Assembly (NCBI RefSeq): GCF_035084215.1
Contig: NC_090362.1
Coordinates: 19,654,001-19,718,000, forward strand
Source of the DNA: Heptranchias perlo
Lineage: Eukaryota
Length of the DNA stretch: 64,000 nt
Direction of reading: 5' to 3'
Part shown: one piece after another, positions 6,881-51,842 of the stretch
Layout of the letters: each line of letters opens with the position of its first letter
How positions within the stretch are numbered: position 1 is the first letter of the stretch
The notes under the pieces: generated by a model
Database searches by the model: none
What the model saw: only the letters and a program-made list of their open reading frames with translations
Told to the model about the DNA's origin: nothing
Position numbers and translations under genes: made by a program

Positions 6881-9516
6881 TAGAAGCATAGAAGTTTACA
6901 ACATGGAAACAGGCCCTTCGGCCCAACATGTCCATGTCGCCCAGTTTATACCACTAAGCTAGTCCCAATTGCCTGCACTTGGCCCATATCCCTCTATACC
7001 CATCTTACCCATGTAACTATCCAAATGCTTTTTAAAAGACAAAATTGTACCCGCCTCTACTACTGCCTCTGGCAGCTCGTTCCAGACACTCACCACCCTT
7101 TGAGTGAAAAAATTGCCCCTCTGGACCCTTTTGTATCTCTCCCCTCTCACCTTAAATCTATGCCCCCTCGTTATAGACTCCCCTACCTTTGGGAAAAGAT
7201 TTTGACTATCTACCTTATCTATGCCCCTCATTATTTTATAGACTTCTATAAGATCACCCCCAAACCTCCTACTCTCCAGGGAAAAAAGTCTCAGTCTATC
7301 CAACCTCTCCCTATAAGTCAAACCATCAAGTCCCGGTAGCATCCTAGTAAATCTTTTCTGCACTCTTTCTAGTTTAATAATATCCTTTCTATAATAGGGT
7401 GACCAGAACTGTACACAGTATTCCAAGTGTGGCCTAACTAATGTCTTGTACAACTTCAACAAGACATCCCAACTCCTGTATTCAATGTTCTGACCAATGA
7501 AACCAAGCATGCTGAATGCCTTCTTCACCACCCTATCCACCTGTGACTCCACTTTCAAGGAGCTATGAACCTGTACTCCTAGATCTCTTTGTTCTATAAC
7601 TCTCCCCAGCGCCCTACCATTAACGGAGTAGGTCCTGGCCCGATTCGATCTACCAAAATGCATCACCTCACATTTATCTAAATTAAACTCCATCTGCCAT
7701 TCATCGGCCCACTGGCCCAATTTATCAAGATCCCGTTGCAATCCTAGCTATCCTTCTTCACTGTCCACAATGTCACCAATCTTGATGTCATCTGCAAACT
7801 TATTAACCATGCCTCCTAAATTCTCATCCAAATCATTAATATAAATAACAAATAACAGCGGACCCAGCACCGATCCCTGAGGCACACCGCTGGTCACAGG
7901 CCTCCAGTTTGAAAAACAACCCTCTACAACCACCCTCTGTCTTCTGTCGTCAATCCAATTTTGTATCCAATTGGCTACCTCACCTTGGATCCCGTGAGAT
8001 TTAACCTTATGTAACAACCTACCATGCGGTACCTTGTCAAAGGCTTTGCTAAAGTCCATGTAGACCACGTCTACTGCACAGCCCTCATCTATCTTCTTGG
8101 TTACCCCTTCAAAAAACTCAATCAAATTCGTGAGACATGATTTTCCACTCACAAAACCATGCTGACTGTTCCTAATCAGTCCTTGCCTCTCCAAATGCCT
8201 GTAGATCCTGTCTCTCAGAATACCCTCAAACAACTTACCCACTACAGATGTCAGGCTCACCGGTCTGTAGTTCCCAGGCTTTTCCCTGCCGCCCTTCTTA
8301 AACAAAGGCACAACATTTGCTACCCTCCAATCTTCAGGCACCTCACCTGTAGCTGTCGATGATTCAAATATCTCTGCTAGGGGACCCGCAATTTCCTCCC
8401 TAACCTCCCATAACGTCCTGGGATACATTTCATCAGGTCCCGGAGATTTATCTACCTTGATGCACGTTAAGACTTCCAGCACCTCCCTCTCTGTAATATG
8501 TACACTCCTCAAGACATCACTATTTATTTCCCCAAGTTCCCTAACATCCATGCCTTTCTCAACCGTAAATACCGATGTGAAATATTCATTTAGGATCTCA
8601 CCCATCTCTTGTGGTTCCGCACATAGATGACCTTGTTGATCCTTAGGAGGCCCTACTCTCTCCCTAGTTACTCTTTTGCCCTTTATGTATTTGTAGAAGC
8701 TCTTTGGATTCTCCTTTGCCTTATCTGCCAAAGCAATCTCATGTCCCCTTTTTGCCCTCCTGATTTCTCTCTTAACTCTACTCCGGCAATCTCTATACTC
8801 TTCAAGGGATCCACTTGATCCCAGCTGCCTATGCATGTCATATGCCTCCTTCTTCTTTTTGACTAGGGCCTCAATCCCCCGAGTCATCCAAGGTTCCCTA
8901 CTTCTACCAGCCTTGCCCTTCACTTTATAAGGAATGTGCTTACCCTGAACCCTGGTTAACACACTTTTGAAAGCCTCCCACTTACCAGACGTCCCTTTGC
9001 CTGCCAACAGACTCTCCCAATCAACTTCTGAAAGTTCCTGTCTAATACCATCAAAATTGGCCTTTCCCCAATTTAGAATTTTAACTTTTGGGCCAGACCT
9101 ATCATTCTCCATAGCTATCTTAAAACTAATGGAATTATGATCACTGGTCCCAAAGTGATCCCTCACTAACACTTCTGTCACCTGCCCTTCCTTATTTCCC
9201 AAGAGGAGGTCAAGTTTTGCCCCCTCTCTAGTCAGGCCATCCACATACTGAATGAGAAATTCCTCCTGAATACACTCAACAAATTTCTCTCCATCCAAGC
9301 CCCTAATGCTATGGCTGTCCCAGTCAATGTTGAGAAAGTTAAAGTCCCCTACTATTACCACCCTATTTTTCTTGCAGCTGTCTGTAATCTCCTTACATAT
9401 TTGCTCCTCAATTTCCCGTTGACTATTTGGGGGTCTGTAGTACAATCCTATCAAAGTGATCTCTCCCTTCTTATTCTTCAGTTCTACCCATATAGACTCA
9501 GTGGGCGAACCCTCGG
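6881..9516 (-). mobile_element. 5'-truncated CR1 LINE (partial EN + RT + 3' tail)
   Basis: ORFs 7748-9604 and 6959-7741 are one frame broken by a single TAG at 7750-7748. Motifs [42 protein letters not shown]; short TTCTA repeat tail. Confidence 0.95.
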
Positions 9517-25229: not shown

Positions 25230-25427
25230 ATGGCGGCGGAGCGGAGCCCGTGGGCGCTCAGGGCGGGGGCCGAGGCCGAGGGACCCGGGCCCGGGGCGGG
25301 GGCTGAGCGGAGAGCCGGGCAGGTGCCGCCCGACAGCCGCAGCGAGGCGGCGCTGGCCAACACCCAGTGGGCCTTGAAGCGGTACGCGCGCTTCACACCG
25401 CCGGGCGGGGCCTCGAGCTCTTGGGAG
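25230..25427 (+). CDS. REC114: REC114 exon 1 (66 codons)
   Basis: MAAERS...QWALKRYARF...SSSWE matches the REC114 N-terminal W-x-L-x-R-Y motif. Lies in a CpG island. Donor GAG|GTGAGA, phase 0. Start codon inferred. Confidence 0.88.
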
Positions 25428-25459
25428 GTGAGAGAGAGGCCGGGGGACAGGTACATGGC

Positions 25460-25820
25460 GGGGTACACGGGTTAGGAGAGGGTATATCAGGGTGTGGTAT
25501 ATAGATGGGAGGGGGTACATCGGGGCGTGGTAGATGGGCTGGGAGGAGGTACACGGGCTGGGAGGGGGTACACCGGGGCGTGGTACACGGGCTGGGAGGG
25601 GGTACACGGGCTGGGAGGGGGTACACCGGGGCGTGGTACACGGGCTGGGAGGGGGTACACGGGCTGGGAGGGGGTACACTGGCTGGGAGGGGGTACACTG
25701 GCTGGGAGGGGGTACACGGGCTGGGAGGGGGTACACGGGCTGGGAGGGGGTACACGGGCTGGGAGGGGGTACACGGGCTGGGAGGGGGTACACGGGCTGG
25801 GAGGGGGTACATCGGGGCGT
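25460..25820. repeat. G-rich 20-bp minisatellite (GTACACGGGCTGGGAGGGGG) at the start of REC114 intron 1
   Basis: Directly visible; it explains the Pro/Gly-rich ORFs at 25098-25985. Confidence 0.95.
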
Positions 25821-25821
25821 G

Positions 25822-26222
25822 TCCTCAGGATGTCCCAAAGTACTTTACAGCCAATGAAGTACATTTTGAAGTGTAGTCACTGTTGTGATGTAGGAAATGC
25901 AGCAGCTAATTTGTACACAGCAAGATCCCACAAATCGCAATGTGATAATTACCAGATTGTCGCTTTGTTCTATGATGTTGGTTGAGGGATAAATATTTAC
26001 CAGGACACCTGGGAGAACTCCACTGCTCTTTTTAGATTACTGCCTTGCGATCTTTTATGTGCACCTGAGAGGGGAGATGGGGCCTTGGTTTAACGTCTCA
26101 TCGCACTCCTTCGGTACTGCACTGCAGTATCAGCCTAGATTTTGTGCTCAAGCTTGATTGGGACTTGAACCCACAAACTTCTGATTCAGAGGCGAGAGTG
26201 CTGCCACTGAGCCATGGCTGAT
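25822..26222 (-). mobile_element. tRNA-headed DeuSINE (SacSINE1/AmnSINE-like)
   Basis: Head TGGCTCAGTGG...GGTTCAAGTCC on the minus strand; body shared with copies at 3050-3228, 18045-18410, 47765-47905 and 57525-57925. Confidence 0.75.
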
Positions 26223-27979
26223 ACTGTAGGAGATGGTAAATTAGAGTGTGGAGTGTTGGAGGTGGTATATTGGGTGTGGTATATGGAGTAGGAGGTATAT
26301 TAGAGTATTGAACATGAAGTAGGACGTGGTATATTAGGGTGTGGTACAAGGAGTGGGAGCTGCTGTATATGAGGGGTAGGAGGTGTTATAGTAGTGTGTG
26401 ATATGAGGGGTAGGAGATGGTAAAAAGGGTGTGGTATGAGGTCTGGGAGGATGTATAAAAGGGTGTAGTTTATGAGGAGTAGGCGGTAGTAAAAGGGTGT
26501 GGGGTAGGAAGAGTGGGTGGTATATGAGGGGTCGAAGGTGGAATCAGGATGAGGTGTATCGGGAATGGGTGGTGGTCCAAATAGGTAGTGGTATATGCAG
26601 GGTAGGAGGTGGTTTCTGAAGGTATGGTATATGAGGGTTTGTAGATTGTATCTGAGAATGGGGTGTATTAGGGGTGGGAGGTGGCATTTGAAGGTGTGCG
26701 TGTTTCATGATTCAGGTGCTCACCAGATATTTTGTCTCAAGCTGGTTGCAAAAATTCTGCTCTTATGGGAGCTGGAAAGAGTACTTGATTTCTCTCTGGT
26801 ATTTTTAAACTATCAATAAAAGTCCTGCTTATCCAGTTGTTCTCATTAGTAAATGTCTTATTTTGAATTAGGCATCTGTGATGTGAAGTTCAATATGAGA
26901 TTGAATCATCCACACAGTCCTTCATAGTCAGTCGAACAGTAGAGAGAACTACAATGGTGAACTAGCAAAATCATGCCATGCTTGTACTCAATTTCTGGCC
27001 ACCTAAATGACAATTAAAATAGACTTCAAAGTGGCTGGGTGATCCCTCAGAAGCTTGTCCATTTCCAGGATAAAGCTGAGCTATGAGTGTGATAGTCAAG
27101 GCCCCTTTTTGAGACAGCCACCATTGTTTGTTGCTCTTGAATGGTCTGGTGCAGTAGCGCACAAAATAGTCTGTAAATCTGGGAAGACTGTAGCCTGGTG
27201 ATCCATGTAAATTGTTTCTATGATGTTAGTGGGCTGTGAGTTTTTGCTTACTTGTTGAACAGTTGGGTCTTATAACTTCCATTCCCATAGTTGGGCACCC
27301 CCTGCCCCCTCCCTCCGCCTCATCTATTTCCTCAAATGTAATTGAAGGTGTCAAGAGGAGAAAACGCACCCAAATTCACACTCTTTACATAGATGAGTCT
27401 GATGTTGGATTTCTGGTCCAGAAAGTATGTTCATTTCATCTAGACTGATTGCTCTCGGTGTGTAGTAACCAGTTTGAAGTGCCCATAATGTGCTACAACT
27501 ACAAGCCACTCCCTCAACCTATATAAAAACAATATATAACAGATTCTTATATTAAGCAGGACAGATGGCATGAGATTGTATATGAGGGATGCGAGGTCAT
27601 GTCTGGTGTATGAGGGTGTTGTGAAATGGCAGAAGGTGGTATGAGAGGTGTGAGATTATGACTGGTGTATGAGGGTAATGTGAGATTGGTATATTTTGGA
27701 CTGGGAGGTGATAAGAGGTGGAATGTGAAGGGGTGTGAGATAGCAGGAAGCAGGCAGGTATTTATAGTACTTGTGGACACAGTGAAACACTTGGTTCACA
27801 GGAATACAGTAAATTTCTAATCTGGCTCATGGATTCTGAAAAGTGTGATAATGCAGTCATTCCAGTCACATTTGTGAAGCTCCTGAAATGTTGGAGATGT
27901 GGATTATTAAATGCTGTGAAAATATTTGACATTGTTGTTAACCATTGATGCAGTAAATCAGTTTTATTTTACTTTTGAG

Positions 27980-41339: not shown

Positions 41340-41600
41340 ACCCACTGTGGGACTGGAATCACAATCCTTTCCCTCAGGGACATTAGTGAATCAGTTGGGT
41401 TTTTATGACATTTATTTTAAGGGCAATTAGGGATGGGTAATAAATGCTGGCCTTGCCAGCGACGCCCACATCCCATGAACGAATAAAAAAAACACTCCGG
41501 CAGCTTTCATGGTAATTTTCCCTGGTGCTAATCACAAATTACTAGATTTATTGAACTGAACTGCACAGTATGCCATGATAGGAATTTGAACTCACTTCTA
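41340..41600. mobile_element. Old antisense SINE matching the head of the 48543-51842 LINE, with a young sense 3' tail of the same family inserted at ~41415-41492
   Basis: ggacattagtgaatcagttgggttttta...tttcatgg...tttgaactca matches 51560-51775; 41420-41492 is near-identical to the reverse complement of 48545-48618. Confidence 0.75.
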
Positions 41601-44579: not shown

Positions 44580-45194
44580 GTAGGATAGCAGGAGAGTAAG
44601 ATAACCCCTCCTGCCCAACCCTAGTTTATTTTGCTGTGGTTTGTTGCCACGCCATGATTGAGCTGAACCTTCCTGAAACTCCTGTTAACGTCTGTGGATG
44701 TTACACATACTCTAACACGCTATCAAAATATTCAAGATGGTCCCTCTCGATAACGTGACTGCCCTGTACCTGTGAAATTTCATGCACCACTGACAAGCAA
44801 CTTATCTGCAAGTGTTGTTACAGAATAGGTCACATTAAAAGCTGCAGGGTGTGAGAAGCATCACTATTCATGTTGGTGTTTGTGAGCAATCCCAGCTGTC
44901 ACGAGCTCATGCCTATCTTTTAAACTACCACCTCAGACAGAGTATGACAATGCTTGAAATCCTCGACAAGCTATTTATCAACCCCATCTTTTTCCTCATT
45001 ATGAAAAGCATATGAAAGCTGTGGAGATTATTCGGACTACTCTTTAAGGTTTTGTTTTTTAGCAGCTTTGAACAAGTGTAAGTCACGTGTTATGTCTGAA
45101 ATGATTACAATGAGCAGTTAGCATTCGACCCTATCAAAACTTTCAGTAGCGGGTCAAATGGAAAACTTTTCAGTGGCAGGAGTGATTCCTGACA

Positions 45195-47085
45195 CAAAGG
45201 AAGATTGTATGGTCGTCAGAGGCCAGTCATCACAGCACCAGCACATCACTGCAGGAGTTCCTCAGGGATCTTCAGCTTCTTCATTAATGACCTCCTGTCA
45301 TAAGGTCAGGAGTGGGGCTGTTTGTTGATGATTCCGCAGTGTTCAGTTCCATTCACAGCTCCTCTGATAATGAAGCTGCCCTTGCCAGCTTACAACAGGA
45401 CCTGGATAACATCCAGAATTGAGCTGACAAGTGACAGGTAACATTTGCACCACTTAAGTGCCAAGAAATGATCATCTTGAATAAGACAAAGCCTAGGCAC
45501 CTCCACTTCTTCTTTAATAGCACCACCATCACCCAGCCACCATGAAAGTCCTGCCGATCACAATATTTATTAACGACTTAGATGAAGACATAGAAAGTCT
45601 CATATCTAAGTTTTCTGATGACACAAAGATTTGGTGGTATTGTAAGCAGTGTAGATGAAAACATAAAATTACAAAGTGCTTTGATCGATTAGGTGAATGG
45701 GCAAAACTGGCAAATGGAATTCAATGTAGACAAATGTGAGGTTATCCACTTTGGATCAAAAAAGGATAGAACAGGGTACTTTCTAAATAGTAAAAAGTTA
45801 AGAACAGTGAATGACCAAAGGGACTTAGGGGTTCAGGTACATAGATCATCGAAGTGTCATGAACAGATGCAGAAAATAATCAATAAGGCTAATGGAATGC
45901 TGGCCTTTATATCTAGAGGGCCGGAGTACAAGGGGGCAGAAGTCATGCTGCAGCTATACAAAACCCTGGTTAGACCGCACCTGGAGTACTGTGAGCAGTT
46001 CTGGGCACCGCACCTTCGGAAGGACATATTGGCCTGGGAGGGAGTGCAGCGTAGGTTTACTAGAATGATACCCGGACTTCAAGGGTTAAGTTACGAGGAG
46101 AGATTACACAAATTGGGGTTGTATTCTCTAGAGTTTCGAAGGTTAAGGGGTGATCTGATCGAAGTTTATAAGATATTAAGGGGAACAGATAGGGTGGATA
46201 GAGAGAAACTATTTCTGCTATTTGGGGATTCTAGGAGTAGGGGGCACAGTCTAAAAATTAGAGCCAGACCTTTCAGGAGTGAGATTAGAAAACATTTCTA
46301 CACACAAAGGGTGGTAGAAGTTTGGAACTCTCTTCCGCAAACAGCAATTGATACTAGCTCAATTGCTAAATTTAAATCTGAGATCGATAGCTTTTTGGCA
46401 ACCAAAGGTATTAAGGGATATGGGCCAAAGGCGGGTATATGGAGCTAGATCACAGATCAGCCATGATCTTATCAAATGGCGGAGCAGGCACAAGGGGCTG
46501 AATGGCCTACTCCTGTTCCTATGATCACCATTGACCAGAAGCTGAGCTGGATCAGCCATATCAACACTGTATCGTGCTCTTGCAGCCAGAGGCTGGGTAT
46601 CTGTGATGAGTGGCTCACCTCCTGACCCCTTAAAACCTCTTCTCCATCTATAATGCTCAAGTCAGGAATATGATGGAACACTCACCACTTGCCTGGATGT
46701 GTACAATCACAACACTCAAGAAGCTCAACATCATCCAAGACAAAGCAGTTCATTTGATTGGTGCGTCGCCACTGAATTTAATATCCACCCCCTCCACTAC
46801 TAGCGTACTGTGGTTGCAATATATGTGATCTACAAGGAGGCACTGCGTCAACTCACCAAGGTTATATCGACAGTGCCCCACTTTCGTGTGACCTCTGCCA
46901 ATGGGGAGGACACGAGCAGCAACGTTTGGGAACATCACCTAATTCCCCTTCAAGTTGCTCACCATCCTGACTTGGACATGTATCACTGTTCCTTCATCTT
47001 CACTTAGTCAATATCCTTGAATTGCCTACTTAACACAATTGTGGGAGCACCATCACCACAAGGGCTGCAGCAGCTCAAGGGGACT
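45195..47085 (+). mobile_element. Old decayed copy of the 48543-51842 LINE family, split by the CR1 insertion
   Basis: 45200-45560 resembles the reverse complement of 49590-49210 (gcaggagttcctcaggg). The sequence resumes at 46523 with tcaccattgaccagaa and follows the family to near its 3' end. Confidence 0.8.
45563..46522 (+). mobile_element. CR1 3' fragment nested in an older LINE
   Basis: ORF 45693-46448 encodes the CR1 C-terminus; GATCAC occurs at both junctions. Confidence 0.9.
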
Positions 47086-47338: not shown

Positions 47339-48542
47339 GTAGGTAAAGACAGAGTTATTATGTCTTCTGCTTTTTACTATGTATTAAATCTGTATTCTTG
47401 AATCAAATACTGTTCCACTTCTTGCGATCAGTGTAAACAACAATTACTCCCAGAAAAGATACAGAGCAGATTTGATGCAGAGTAAAACTCCTTTTACATT
47501 GTTCTAATAAAGTACAGCAATGTAACATTTCATATTCCAGGAAGAAGATTAAAATTGTTTTTGAAAGCCATTGTAGTCATCCTTGAGGCTTCTGAGTGAC
47601 GTGATTTAATACTGAATTACGAATAGATTTTGTTCTGAAGACTCTGGCCCAGTCTGAACTTGGTAAAGACTGGTCCAAGTTCAGTTCATGTAAGGCATTT
47701 ACAGCTTAGAGCGTTGAATATGAAACTCAACCAGAGATAAAAACAAACCCTGTCATCTCATTTACTGTTTGTACTACCTAGCTGTGTGCAAATTGGCTGT
47801 CATCTTTGCCTGCACAACAAGTGATTACTCTTCAGAAGTAATGAGATTTTAAGCATTTTAGGAGATTCTGAGGATATGCTAAGTCACTATGTAAATACAA
47901 GCTTGCTTTCTTTCTTTCACTATGCAACGCATTCCCCTCTTGAGTTTTTCACTTTTTAATATTTTTTTCCTTCGGGCTCTATTCTAAACTTGCTGAGGCA
48001 ACAACTAAGGATAGAAGAGAAAAAGGGTAATCAATAAAAAGGGGAAAAGTAGAGGGCAAATCAAGGAAAGAACTGGAAAGGTAAGAATCAAAAGGGCTTG
48101 TTTCTATCTATATTTTGTTTCATACAATCAGGAAGCAAATTTTATTCTACTGCACCTTAGTTTATCGCCTGTTGTTTGTACCCCTTAATGTGTTGAAAGA
48201 GTTAAGATGTGACAAGTTATTCTAAAGAAGGAATCTTATTCTCAGTTTGGATAGCAAATTTGTCAGTTTCTCGTAGCATTAATAAAATCGAGCCTCTTCT
48301 GTCACTGCACAAACCTTACAAAACCATGACTTCTACCTGGAACAGAATCTGTATCAAGTGACTAGTAGCTACTGTGAGACTAGACTGGGGCGAATGGGAG
48401 ATGGATATAATAAGTATCTTATTCTCAGTCTGTCAGTGTCGTATCGTCTTTCCTGTAGTATCCGAGCTTTAGGTCTACTTCCGAAATTTGTAAGATGAAT
48501 ACGTAGTTCTGTACCTCTTTGGGCAGTTAGCAAAAGCTTTAG

Positions 48543-51500
48543 TTTTTTTTTTATTCGTTCACGGGATGTGGGCGTCGCTGGCAAGGCCAGCATTTATTGC
48601 CCATCCCTAATTGCCCTCGAGAAGGTGGTGGTGAGCCGCCTTCTTGAACCGCTGCAGTCCGTGTGGTGACGGTTCTCCCACAGTGCTGTTAGGAAGGGAG
48701 TTCCAGGATTTTGACCCAGCGACGATGAAGGAACGGCGATATATTTCCAAGTCGGGATGGTGTGTGACTTGGAGGGGAACGTGCAGGTGGTGTTGTTCCC
48801 ATGTGCCTGCTGCTCTTGTCCTTCTAGGTGGTAGAGGTCGCGGGTTTGGGAGGTGCTGTCGAAGAAGCCTTGGCGAGTTGCTGCAGTGCATCCTGTGGAT
48901 GGTACACACTGCAGCCACAGTGCGCCGGTGGTGAAGGGAGTGAATGTTTAGGGTGATGGATGGGGTGCCAATCAAGCGGGCTGCTTTATCTTGGATGGTG
49001 TCGAGCTTCTTGAGTGTTGTTGGAGCTGCACTCATCCAGGCAAGTGGAGAGTATTCCATCACACTCCTGACTTGTGCCTTGTAGATGGTGGAAAGGCTTT
49101 GGGGAGTCAGGAGGTGAGTCACTCGCCGCAGAACACCCAGCCTCTGACCTGCTCTCGTAGCCACAGTATTTATATGGCTGGTCCAGTTCAGTTTCTGGTC
49201 AATGGTGACCACCAGGATGTTGATGGTGGGGGATTCGGCGATGGTAATGCCGTTGAATGTCAAGGGGAGGTGGTTAGACTTTCTCTTGTTGGAGATGGTC
49301 ATTGCCTGGCACTTATCTGGCGCGAATGTTACTTGCCACTTATGAGCCCAAGCCTGGATGTTGTCCAGGTCTTGCTGCATGCGGGCTCGGACTGCTTCAT
49401 TGAGGGGTTGCGAATGGAACTGAACACTGTGCAGTCATCAGCGAACATCCCCATTTCTGACCTTATGATGGAGGGAAGGTCATTGATGAAGCAGCTGAAG
49501 ATGGTTGGGCCTAGGACACTGCCCTGAGGAACTCCTGCAGCAATGCCCTGGGGCTGAGATGATTGGCCTCCAACAACCACTACCATCTTCCTTTGTGCTA
49601 GGTATGACTCCAGCCACTGGAGAGTTTTCCCCCTGATTCCCATTGACTTCAATTTTACTAGGGCTCCTTGGTGCCACACTCGGTCAAATGCTGCCTTGAT
49701 GTCAAGGGCAGTCACTCTCACCTCACCTCAGGAATTCAGCTCTTTTGTCCATGTTTGGACCAAGGCTGTAATAAGGTCTGGAGCCGAGTGGTCCTGGCGG
49801 AACCCAAACTGAGCATCGGTGAGCAGGTTATTGGTGAGTAAGTGCCGCTTGATAGCACTGTCGACGACACCTTCCATCACTTTGCTGATGATTGAGAGTA
49901 GACTGATGGGGCGGTAATTGGCCGGATTGGATTTGTCCTGCTTTTTGTGGACAGGACATACCTGGGCAATTTTCCACATTGTCGGGTAGATGCCAGTGTT
50001 GTAGCTGTACTGGAACAGCTTGGCTAGAGGCGCAGCTAGTTCTGGAGCACAAGTCTTCAGCACTACAGCTGGGATGTTGTCGGGGCCCATAGCCTTTGCT
50101 GTATCCAGTGCACTCAGCCGTTTCTTGATATCACGTGGAGTGAATCGAATTGGCCGAAGACTGGCTTCCGTGATGGTGGGGATATCGGGAGGAGGCCGAG
50201 ATGGATCATCCACTCGGCACTTCTGGCTGAAGATGGTTGCAAACGCTTCAGCCTTGTCTTTTGCGCTGGGGCTGAGATGTTTGCAGAGCCTCCTCCTCCC
50301 GTTAGTTGTTTAATTGTCCACCACCATTCACGACTGGATGTGGCAGGACTGCAGAGCTTTGATCTGATCCGTTGGTTGTGGAATCGCTTAGCTCTGTCTA
50401 TAGCATGTTGCTTCCGCTGTTTAGCATGCATGTAGTCCTGAGTTGTAGCTTCACCAGGTTGGTACCTCATTTTTAGGTACGCCTGGTGCTGCTCCTGGCA
50501 TGCTCTTCTACACTCCTCATTGAACCAGGGTTGATCCCCTGGCTTGTTGGTAATGGTAGAGTGAGGAATATGCCGGGCCATGAGGTTACAGATTGTGCTG
50601 GAATACAATTCTGCTGCTGCTGATGGCCCACAGCGCCTCATGGATGCCCAATTTTGAGCTGCTAGACCCGTTCTGAATCTATCCCATTTAGCACGGTGGT
50701 AGTGCCACACAACACGTTGGATGGTGTCCTCAGTGCGAAGACGGGACTTCATCTCCACAAGGACTGTGCGGTGGTCACTCCCACCAATACTGTCATGGAC
50801 AGATGCATTTGCGACAGGTAGATTGGTGAGGACAAGGTCAAGTAAGTTTTTCCCTCGTGTTGGTTCGCTCACCACCTGCCGCAGGCCCAGTCTAGCAGCT
50901 ATGTCCTTCAGGACTCGGCCAGCTCGGTCAGTAGTGGTGCTACCGAGCCACTCTTGGTGATGGACATTGAAGTCCCCCACCCAGAGTACATTCTGTGCCC
51001 TTGCTACCCTCAGTGCTTCCTCCAAGTGGTGCTCAACATGGAGGAGGACTGATTCATCAGCTGAGGGAGGACGGTCGGTGGTAATCAGCAGGAGGTTTCC
51101 TTGCCCATGTTTGACCTGATGCCATGAGATTTCATGGGGTCCAGAGTCAATGTTGAGGACTCCCAGGGCCACTCCCTCCTGACTGTATATTACTGTACCG
51201 CCACCTCTGGTGGGTCTGTCCTGCCGGTGGGACAGGACATACCCAGGGATGGTGATGGAAGAGTCTGGGACGTTGGCTGAAAGATATGATTCTGTGAGTA
51301 TGGCTATGTCAGGCTGTTGCTTGACTAGTCTGTGGGACAGCTCTCCAAATTTTGGCACAAGTCCCCAGATGTTAGTAAGGAGGACCTTGCAGGGTCGACT
51401 GGGCTTGGTGTTTTGCCGTTGTCGTGTCCGGTGCCTAGTGGTCCGATGCCGGGTGGTCCGTCCGGTTTTATTCTTATTATGACTTTTCGTAGCGAGATTT

Positions 51501-51842
51501 TACAACTGAGTGGCTTGCTAGGCCATTTCAGAGGGCAATTAAGAATCAACCACATTGCTGTGGGTCTGGAGTCACATATAGGCCAGACCGGGTAAGGACG
51601 GCAGGTTTCCTTCCCTAAAGGACATTAGTGAACCAGATGGGTTTTTACGACAATCCGGTAGTTTCATGGCCATCATCACTGATACTAGTATTTTAATTCC
51701 AGATTTGTATTTAATTAATTAATTAATTAATTGAATTTAAATTCGCCAGCTGCCGTGGCGGGATTTGAACTCATGACTCTGGATTTTAGTCCAGGCCTCT
51801 GGATTACTAGCCCAGTAACATAATCACTATGCTACCGTACCC
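48543..51842 (-). mobile_element. Near full-length single-ORF non-LTR retrotransposon (APE endonuclease + RT, CR1-group-like) with a tRNA-derived SINE-like head; disabled copy
   Basis: EN motifs (LTNIWGL, LTES, VGDFN, LLDLVLTN, SDH) and RT motifs ([36 protein letters not shown]). Frameshifts near 50270 and 49400, in-frame TGA at 49730-49728. 3' stem-loop and A-tail at 48543-48610. A box 51834-51824, B box 51770-51761. Confidence 0.9.

What the first reader, a model, noticed from the sequence alone, without database searches (positions are those of the whole stretch)
48543..51842. tRNA/SINE-headed single-ORF LINE with no sense-strand TTTT: candidate Pol III-transcribed retrotransposon family
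Seen: the 3.3-kb element starts with a tRNA-like head (A box TAGCATAGTGA 51834-51824; a tRNA-Thr(AGT)-like arm CTGGG-CTAGTAA-TCCAG followed by a duplicate arm; B box GTTCAAATCC 51770-51761). About 250 nt of SINE-like body then runs straight into an endonuclease-RT frame, with no ORF1. Scanning by eye I found no AAAA on the plus strand from 48543 to 51842, so no TTTT on the sense strand. Several would be expected by chance, and the minus-strand CR1 at 6881-9516 has many. Known: four or more Ts terminate vertebrate Pol III, and CR1-group LINEs normally carry ORF1 and are thought to use Pol II. Inference: the family is selected to be transcribed end to end by Pol III while still encoding its own EN/RT. 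From memory the SINE body resembles the MetaSINE central domain (unverified). This copy is disabled by three lesions, and some other LINE clades have reported tRNA-derived heads, so novelty needs checking.
Basis: partly seen in the sequence, partly recalled or inferred. Interest (0 to 1): 0.88.

Follow-up and report, generated by a model that had tools for sequence, protein, structure and literature searches.

The report
Shark LINE with a SINE head
An abundant, recently copied jumping gene in what is likely a shark genome encodes its own copying enzymes, yet begins with the tRNA-like start of small non-coding repeats, has no normal start codon and has no TTTT runs, so it is likely a rare protein-coding element transcribed by RNA polymerase III.

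Summary
The element is one broken copy of a young, high-copy 3.3-kb LINE: tRNA-like head (A and B boxes), conserved body, then one endonuclease-RT frame with no ORF1. The fusion is the family's unit: 17 of 20 consecutively listed heads run into the frame; the other 3 are a SINE made of the same first ~360 and last ~100 bases. Older subfamilies share the junction.

New here: no in-frame AUG precedes the endonuclease, yet that domain is under purifying selection (dN/dS 0.14), so translation likely starts without AUG.

Absence of TTTT alone is weak (P about 0.09 against codon shuffles). TTT is depleted specifically (5 vs 12, P 0.002; A, C, G runs are not). A CR1 of this genome has 10-12 TTTT per full frame. 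The body is not the Meta domain. T-runs in tails partly arise after insertion and do not prove a terminator. No RNA data test the polymerase.

Best reading: Pol III transcription and cap-independent, non-AUG translation (0.55). Ten literature searches found no description; Repbase/Dfam could not be searched. This scan noted the same architecture in other genomes (five notes).

The parts
48543..51842 (-). Full-length copy of the tRNA-headed single-ORF LINE (disabled copy of a young family)
   Evidence: 97-98% identical over its length to 33 of 39 fetched copies; 0.73% from the column majority
51752..51842 (-). tRNA-like head: A box 51834-51824, anticodon-arm equivalent 51815-51799 (loop CTAGTAA), duplicated arm 51794-51779, B box 51770-51761
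   Evidence: same 5' start in LINE and SINE copies; B box 0 of 10 majority differences between young and old
51670..51751 (-). AT-rich spacer, fast-changing
   Evidence: 36 of 99 majority differences young vs old; 6-nt deletion in this copy
51490..51669 (-). Conserved body shared with the partner SINE; not the Meta or Deu domain
   Evidence: 10 of 169 differences; published domain consensus seen
51511..51526 (-). Hairpin with 7-nt loop CTAGCAA (51521-51515) holding an in-frame TAG that ends a two-codon upstream frame ATG-GCC-TAG
48607..51499 (-). Single ORF (973 codons in intact copies), opening after TAA 51502-51500: basic N-terminal extension, APE endonuclease, RT, C-terminal domain
50771..51388 (-). 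Endonuclease domain, lying wholly upstream of the first in-frame ATG (50752-50750); this copy has D for the family's Y in YRPP
   Evidence: dN/dS 0.14
49434..49445 (-). RT catalytic motif FADD
50265..50276 (-). Lesion 1: 25-nt deletion (frameshift)
49728..49730 (-). Lesion 2: premature TGA
49400..49404 (-). Lesion 3: 4-nt deletion (frameshift)
48543..48607 (-). 3' stem-loop (with AATAAA 48598-48593) and short A tail; the part shared with the SINE's tail
   Evidence: fold z -2.2 for the last 118 nt
48532..48535 (-). First sense TTTT, in the flank 8 nt past the tail (could end a Pol III transcript of this copy)

Best explanation
This is a high-copy, single-ORF endonuclease-RT LINE whose mobile unit starts at a tRNA-derived A/B-box head shared with a partner SINE, and it is likely transcribed end to end by RNA polymerase III and likely translated without a cap or an AUG. 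Shown: the architecture; its recurrence in young and old subfamilies; purifying selection on the AUG-less endonuclease; strand- and base-specific scarcity of T-runs; a SINE equal to the LINE minus its middle. Inferred: TFIIIC binds the boxes and Pol III starts about 8 nt before the A box. It crosses 3.3 kb because the masters keep no TTTT, and stops at a T-run in or just past the A tail. The conserved body then recruits ribosomes to a non-AUG codon just after base 51500, and the protein binds the 3' stem-loop of its own RNA and of the SINE for target-primed reverse transcription.
For: Junction in 40 of 40 top hits, 1344 candidates; 1699 exact young heads. Of the first 20 listed heads, 17 continue into the ORF and 3 are SINE forms. 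An older body variant is joined to the ORF at 31 sites; 13 of 31 keep the head. LINE and SINE start at the same base. B box 93% mean identity in old heads vs 74% in the spacer. 9 of 34 full copies have an unbroken 969-987-codon frame; first Met at 246-250 in 8, and at 174 inside the endonuclease in 1. No in-frame ATG in codons 1-249 of the old majority either. dN/dS young vs old majority: EN 0.14, RT 0.18, all 0.26. No TTTT in 31 of 34 full copies; 1 in 65 kb of 40 further copies; 1 in 20 unbiased loci; none in the old majority. TTT 5 vs 12.3 expected (P 0.002) while A, C, G runs match shuffles; 0 of 29 codons before a TT-codon end in T vs 198 of 943 elsewhere. The same genome's CR1 has 10-12 TTTT and 43-46 TTT per full frame; 42 of 42 long metagenome relatives have 7-49 TTTT.
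Against: No transcript, cap or chromatin data: the runs found are contigs only. Zero TTTT has P 0.08-0.10 under codon-preserving shuffles, and all copies are nearly one sequence (young vs old majority 94% identical). 5 of 10 CR1 control copies also fall below their TTTT shuffle at P<=0.01, and 4 of 42 relatives show TTT deficits at P<=0.02, though mild (0.76-0.90 of expected vs 0.41 here). The controls are richer in T (0.22-0.37 vs 0.19); no GC-matched control. TTTT-creating substitutions among 76 copies are 1 vs 7.2 expected, but A4, C4, G4 are also at 0.43-0.62 of expectation, so this is inconclusive. Several old SINE and LINE copies carry TTTT in the 5' spacer. Tail T-runs shift after insertion. 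The body shows no covariation and no unusual folding alone. Pol III is held to be poorly processive, SINEs being 100-700 bp (PMC10886601, passages).
Confidence: 0.55

Rival explanations
1. The LINE captured a SINE 5' end but uses it as a Pol II promoter. The capped RNA is translated by AUG-independent re-initiation after a short upstream frame (ATG-GCC-TAG), and T-run scarcity reflects C-rich codon use or avoidance of splicing and polyadenylation signals.
For: LINEs are described as Pol II units and swap 5' ends often (PMC5786205; bioRxiv 10.1101/2022.11.04.512097, passages). Third positions are C-rich (326 C vs 200 T). TTTT absence is not significant once codon use is kept. Nine upstream ATGs and short frames exist. 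AUG-independent ORF2 initiation in L1 and SART1 is recalled; PMC3894237 (passages) lists re-initiation and IRES options.
Against: The 5' end coincides with that of a tRNA-type SINE at the Pol III position. The B box is selectively kept. TTT depletion persists with codon use held fixed and is T-specific. An internal AATAAA at nt 377 is tolerated. Nine upstream ATGs would hamper scanning.
Confidence: 0.25
2. Division of labour: Pol III makes the template RNA (and the SINE), but the protein comes from capped Pol II read-through or spliced transcripts of a few copies and acts in trans.
For: Explains both the Pol III marks and the difficulty of translating Pol III RNA. Shark gene models contain pieces of this ORF as exons. 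The protein evidently works in trans on the SINE.
Against: Purifying selection along the master lineage is easier to keep if template and message are one RNA. The frame still has no AUG and is closed by a stop right upstream.
Confidence: 0.18
3. Chance adjacency of a SINE and a 5'-truncated LINE whose ORF1 and AUG were lost.
For: The family does insert into its own SINE and LINE copies (L043, L047, L064).
Against: Identical junction at many unrelated loci, in young and old subfamilies. Young-type heads mostly lead into the ORF (17 of 20). The LINE evolved under coding constraint in this form.
Confidence: 0.02

Closest known systems
tRNA-derived SINEs (SINE2) with a LINE-derived tail
   Same: A/B-box head at the 5' end, conserved body, 3' ~100 nt shared with a LINE; the partner SINE here is exactly this.
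   Different: The long form carries a 973-codon EN-RT frame under selection and is 3.3 kb. The SINE shares the LINE's whole 5' end including the head, whereas in described cases the head is added to a LINE-derived remnant (PMC5786205, parts 1-4 of 5 read).
Bipartite non-autonomous LINEs (RTE, Ingi, Vingi, R2; Kojima 2018, PMC5786205)
   Same: Short element = 5' and 3' parts of a single-ORF LINE.
   Different: That paper lists only those four clades and takes them as Pol II products; here the parent LINE itself begins with the tRNA head.
RTE-1_DAn and relatives
   Same: Said in one sentence of PMC5786205 to contain a tRNA-like sequence, so a tRNA-bearing LINE has precedent in Repbase.
   Different: RTE clade; position of the sequence, polymerase and T-run content not given; I could not see the entries.
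CR1-group LINEs (shark CR1 in this window; CR1-Zenon by recall)
   Same: APE-EN + RT, 27% identity to the window's CR1, 3' stem-loop, mostly no target duplication.
   Different: No ORF1; falls in a separate group (support 97, quick tree) with a Branchiostoma protein and unnamed ~950-aa proteins at 35-40% identity. No named reference was in the tree, so the clade name is open.
T+ SINEs (B2, Can; PMC9599045 passages)
   Same: AATAAA, short A tail, T-runs that lengthen inside tails.
   Different: Non-coding, L1-dependent; here no fixed terminator in the family majority.
R2 elements and dicistrovirus IGR IRES
   Same: Non-AUG, cap-independent translation (IGR IRES: PMC3894237 passage; R2: recalled).
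   Different: R2 is a Pol I co-transcript with a different endonuclease; no Rfam IRES match here.

Membership tests
APE-type non-LTR retrotransposon (LINE) | APE endonuclease followed by RT in one frame | tested here: met
   Pfam PF14529/PF03372 and PF00078; unbroken frames in 9 of 34 copies
APE-type non-LTR retrotransposon (LINE) | Dispersed copies, fixed 3' end, 5' truncation | tested here: met
   7900 + 22448 tail matches under a pattern restricted at one flank base vs 1699 exact heads; variable 5' ends
CR1 clade (strict) | ORF1 upstream of EN-RT | tested here: not met
   350-nt leader, longest ATG frame starting in it 76 codons
CR1 clade (strict) | RT groups with vertebrate CR1 | tested here: not met
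   separate group from the genome's CR1 in a quick IQ-TREE of 42 rows
CR1-Zenon / Daphne / Crack | RT groups with named reference elements | not testable with these tools
   no named reference sequences returned by any search
tRNA-derived SINE | 5' A and B boxes in a tRNA-like head | tested here: met
   ARAGORN and Rfam negative
tRNA-derived SINE | Short and non-coding | tested here: not met
   3.3 kb, dN/dS 0.26; met only by the partner SINE
MetaSINE | 66-bp Meta domain right after the head | tested here: not met
   published consensus (PMC7245038 suppl. Fig. S4) shows no likeness by eye; motif searches of supplements negative (one file of PMC4824008 not searched)
DeuSINE (SacSINE1) | Deu domain | tested here: not met
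   Deu alignment in the same figure is unlike the body, by eye; SacSINE1 itself not seen
V-SINE (HE1) / CORE-SINE | V or CORE domain | not tested
   no V or CORE consensus was seen in any call
Pol III type 2 transcription unit | Start just upstream of the A box; no internal T4+ | tested here: met
Pol III type 2 transcription unit | TFIIIC/Pol III occupancy, 5'-triphosphate RNA, amanitin resistance | not testable with these tools
   only contigs, RNA status a guess
T+ SINE-like polyadenylated Pol III RNA | AATAAA followed by an inherited terminator and A tail | tested here: inconclusive
   AATAAA present; T-runs in 14-16% of tails, at variable places and shifting after insertion
Dicistrovirus IGR-type IRES | Anticodon-mimic pseudoknot just before a non-AUG codon, plus upstream pseudoknots | tested here: inconclusive
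   7-nt loop with AGC could pair 4 bp with GCTA at the frame's start; no Rfam hit, no covariation

The most novel reading that the evidence does not exclude
An autonomous 'coding SINE': a 3.3-kb RNA made by Pol III from a tRNA promoter and translated cap-free from a non-AUG codon by the SINE body acting as an IRES, possibly through a tRNA-anticodon-mimic pseudoknot like that of dicistroviruses. It would be a natural protein-coding Pol III gene in a vertebrate, and would give a conserved SINE body an origin as a LINE translation element.
Probability: 0.4. Interest if true: 0.92.

Novelty: new variant of a known kind. Interest (0 to 1): 0.72.

Why it matters
The working rule is that LINEs use Pol II and SINEs Pol III (PMC10886601, PMC5786205), and that Pol III makes only short non-coding RNA. 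A successful vertebrate LINE, with over a thousand head-bearing copies and some with unbroken frames, that runs on a tRNA promoter and has no AUG would break both halves. It makes two open questions testable with one construct: can a multi-kilobase Pol III RNA be translated, and where do conserved SINE bodies come from? Even if Pol II proves responsible, a LINE whose full 5' end is its SINE's head and whose endonuclease is made without AUG was not found in the papers I could search.

Tried and rejected
1) Meta-domain identity: rejected.
2) Tail T-runs as proof of a Pol III terminator. They first looked strong: of 7457 tails with exactly A8, 218 go on TTTT. 79 of the 100 listed belong to the GTG variant, which has 1281 of the 7457. 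In 31 of 33 such GTG copies the T4-10 is followed by A3-6, and where the target is a recognisable repeat the T-run is not target DNA. But less biased tail lists show TTTT in 16 of 100 GTG and 14 of 100 ATG rows at variable places (hand counts), and tandem duplicates of one insertion read T3A9, T4A8 and T5A7. So the A/T boundary moves after insertion, as described for Can SINEs (PMC9599045). Not counted as evidence.
3) Deficit of TTTT-creating mutations: 0 vs 5.4, then 1 vs 7.2 with context, but other bases are also under-predicted; inconclusive.
4) Structure of the body: RNAalifold covariation term +0.69, 2 of 36 pairs with double changes; separate folds of head, body and hairpin z -0.2 to -0.6; whole leader z -3.3 includes an AT palindrome.
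5) A -1 frameshift from the 76-codon +1 upstream frame: no canonical slippery site seen by eye; dN/dS 2.7 in that frame vs 0.46 in the EN frame on few sites. Frame-keeping of the N-terminal extension in old copies is 17 of 31, and 7 of 21 outside the modal length, i.e. chance. Readthrough of the conserved TAG cannot serve the young family, which has a second stop.
6) A search with the window's older relative returned only the young family. Body motif absent from viral contigs and from paper texts. Only 1 of 42 metagenome relatives had a B-box-like motif upstream. The closest (L131, 37%) has an upstream Met and 20 TTTT.
7) ESM Atlas gave only generic EN-RT clusters. No structure or complex prediction was run.
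8) RNA-labelled runs are guesses and contigs only; not used as expression evidence.

Full report
Observation. The minus strand from 51842 to 48543 reads: tRNA-like head with A box (51834-51824), two arm-like hairpins and B box (51770-51761); an AT-rich spacer; a ~180-nt body; then a frame that opens after TAA 51502-51500 and encodes endonuclease and RT. No plus-strand AAAA lies between 48532 and 52032, by far the longest gap in the window. The copy is broken by a 25-nt deletion, a TGA and a 4-nt deletion. ARAGORN and Rfam do not recognise the head. The closest named proteins (79-84% identity over short pieces) are shark gene models, so the host is probably a shark.

The fusion is the family. 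A search with head plus junction gave 40 of 40 scored hits at 97-98% over nearly the whole query, from 1344 candidates. Of the 39 other loci, 33 are full length. They share the 5' start and A tail, lie in unrelated flanks and differ 0.5-1.9% from the column majority. Because that query contained the junction, I also counted exact heads (1699) and fetched the first 20 listed: 17 continue into the ORF and 3 are short forms joining base ~340-360 to the last ~90-105 bases. An older SINE of the same build is abundant (7353 candidates; 20 aligned). An older body variant is joined to the ORF at 31 sites, mostly 72-95% identical to the young family, and 13 keep the head. Contigs of four other organisms cover all 30 bins of the element and show the SINE-type joint, though no listed piece spans the head-ORF junction. 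Chance adjacency is excluded. Which came first, SINE or headed LINE, is not settled; young SINE forms carry the young LINE's head and tail, so the two stay coupled.

Coding. Nine of 34 full copies have an unbroken 969-987-codon frame. The first in-frame Met is at codon 246-250, after the endonuclease's last catalytic motif, in eight; the ninth has a private Met inside the domain. The old majority has no ATG in codons 1-249 either. Yet young versus old majority gives dN/dS 0.14 in the endonuclease (22 synonymous, 9 replacement), 0.18 in RT and 0.26 overall (the old majority comes from pairwise alignments to a young copy and leans towards it). So the endonuclease is translated without an in-frame AUG. 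An in-frame TAG in a 7-nt hairpin loop is kept in most old and young copies, and the young family adds a TAA six codons on, which puts the start at or after 51499. The loop reads CT-AGC-AA and could pair with GCTA at 51493-51490, where the SINE's body also ends. This recalls the anticodon mimic of dicistrovirus IRESs (PMC3894237, passage), but four base pairs without covariation is a lead only.

T-runs. 31 of 34 full copies have no TTTT; two exceptions are at the tail edge, one comes from a 1-nt deletion. Forty more copies have 1 in 65 kb, and the 20 unbiased loci have 1. The old majority has none; TTTT in old copies are mostly singletons, except in the 5' spacer and at one body site. The 40 listed of 304 variants from other organisms create none. 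As the copies are almost one sequence, the test is on that sequence: P(0) is 0.006-0.019 for base shuffles, about 0.002 for uniform codons, but 0.08-0.10 when codon use or dinucleotides are kept. The stronger signal is TTT: 5 against 12.3 in the ORF (P 0.002), with A, C and G runs at expectation, and 0 of 29 codons before a TT-codon ending in T against 198 of 943 elsewhere. Phe is TTT 3, TTC 15-16. The young CR1 of the same genome has 10-12 TTTT and 43-46 TTT per full frame, and the 42 of 80 metagenome relatives with frames of 600+ codons have 7-49 TTTT. Against this: the controls are T-richer, 5 of 10 CR1 copies are also under their TTTT shuffle, and 4 of 42 relatives have mild TTT deficits. 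The mutation test is inconclusive.

Promoter and ends. In 13 old head-bearing copies the B box is 93% identical to the young one with no majority change, against 74% in the spacer; the A box is 81%. LINE and SINE begin at the same base, 8 nt before the A box, where a type 2 Pol III promoter would start (established knowledge). Target duplications are mostly absent (one long one among 34). Tails are short; T-runs inside them occur in about 15% of copies but move after insertion, so they may supply terminators without proving one.

Mechanism. Most likely (0.55) Pol III reads the unit end to end, the uncapped RNA is translated from a non-AUG start set by the body, and the protein retrotransposes its own RNA and the SINE through the shared 3' stem-loop. 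Rivals: Pol II use of a captured SINE end with re-initiation (0.25), or Pol III template with protein from Pol II read-through (0.18). Architecture, selection, AUG absence and T-run pattern are shown; polymerase, cap state and initiation mode are inferred.

Known systems. The RT groups apart from the genome's CR1, with a Branchiostoma protein and unnamed ~950-residue proteins (quick tree, no named clade references). The body does not resemble the Meta or Deu consensus printed in the supplement of PMC7245038. [quoted passage not shown] PMC10886601 (passages) states LINE = Pol II, SINE = Pol III. Also seen: PMC4824008 (passages, section 9, 2 of 3 supplements searched), PMC7245038 (passages, supplement hits), PMC11481361 (supplement search only), PMC5499810 (part 2 of 6; supplements unavailable), PMC10468316, PMC10294476, PMC9599045, PMC3894237 and bioRxiv 10.1101/2022.11.04.512097 (passages), PMC10572872 (abstract). 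Ten searches found no description of this family or of a Pol III-transcribed LINE. Repbase, Dfam, most subscription papers and the unseen supplements could hold it. A sequence look-up of earlier scan notes was empty; a word look-up gave five notes of the same architecture in other genomes, which are unchecked and not counted as support.

Verdict. A real, undescribed-looking variant of LINE with a SINE's 5' end and an AUG-less ORF; Pol III transcription is more likely than not but untested. Interest 0.72.

Noticed in passing
34 young copies (L031-L068 and window): T in TpA differs from the column majority as often as CpG positions do (3.5% vs 3.2% per site), often CTA to CGA/CCA or CTC. Unusual context-dependent change; mutation versus shared sub-lineages not separated.
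   Followed up: no
G000:C1:4719266-4738598: Five tandem duplicates of one insertion have tails T3A9, T4A8 and T5A7 with constant total length: the A/T boundary of the tail moves after insertion.
   Followed up: partly
window 45160-45564 and 46525-47079 (+): Old 74%-identical relative of the family, split by a CR1-like 3' fragment at about 45570-46520.
   Followed up: partly
window 41340-41492: 73-nt 3' tail of the family (97%) sitting in an inverted, decayed copy of the SINE body; similar nesting into own SINE or LINE in L043, L047, L064, L214, L218.
   Followed up: no
window 6881-9516 (-): Very young CR1 family: 40 of 40 top hits 99-100% identical, 418 candidates; some copies with unbroken 1035-codon frames.
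   Followed up: partly
window 24844-26422: G-rich tandem repeat region, second-longest AAAA-free gap; reads as a proline-rich repeat on the minus strand.
   Followed up: no
P0001, P0008, P0015, P0016: Annotated shark gene models contain pieces of this LINE's ORF at 79-84% identity, probably mis-predicted or exonised repeats.
   Followed up: no
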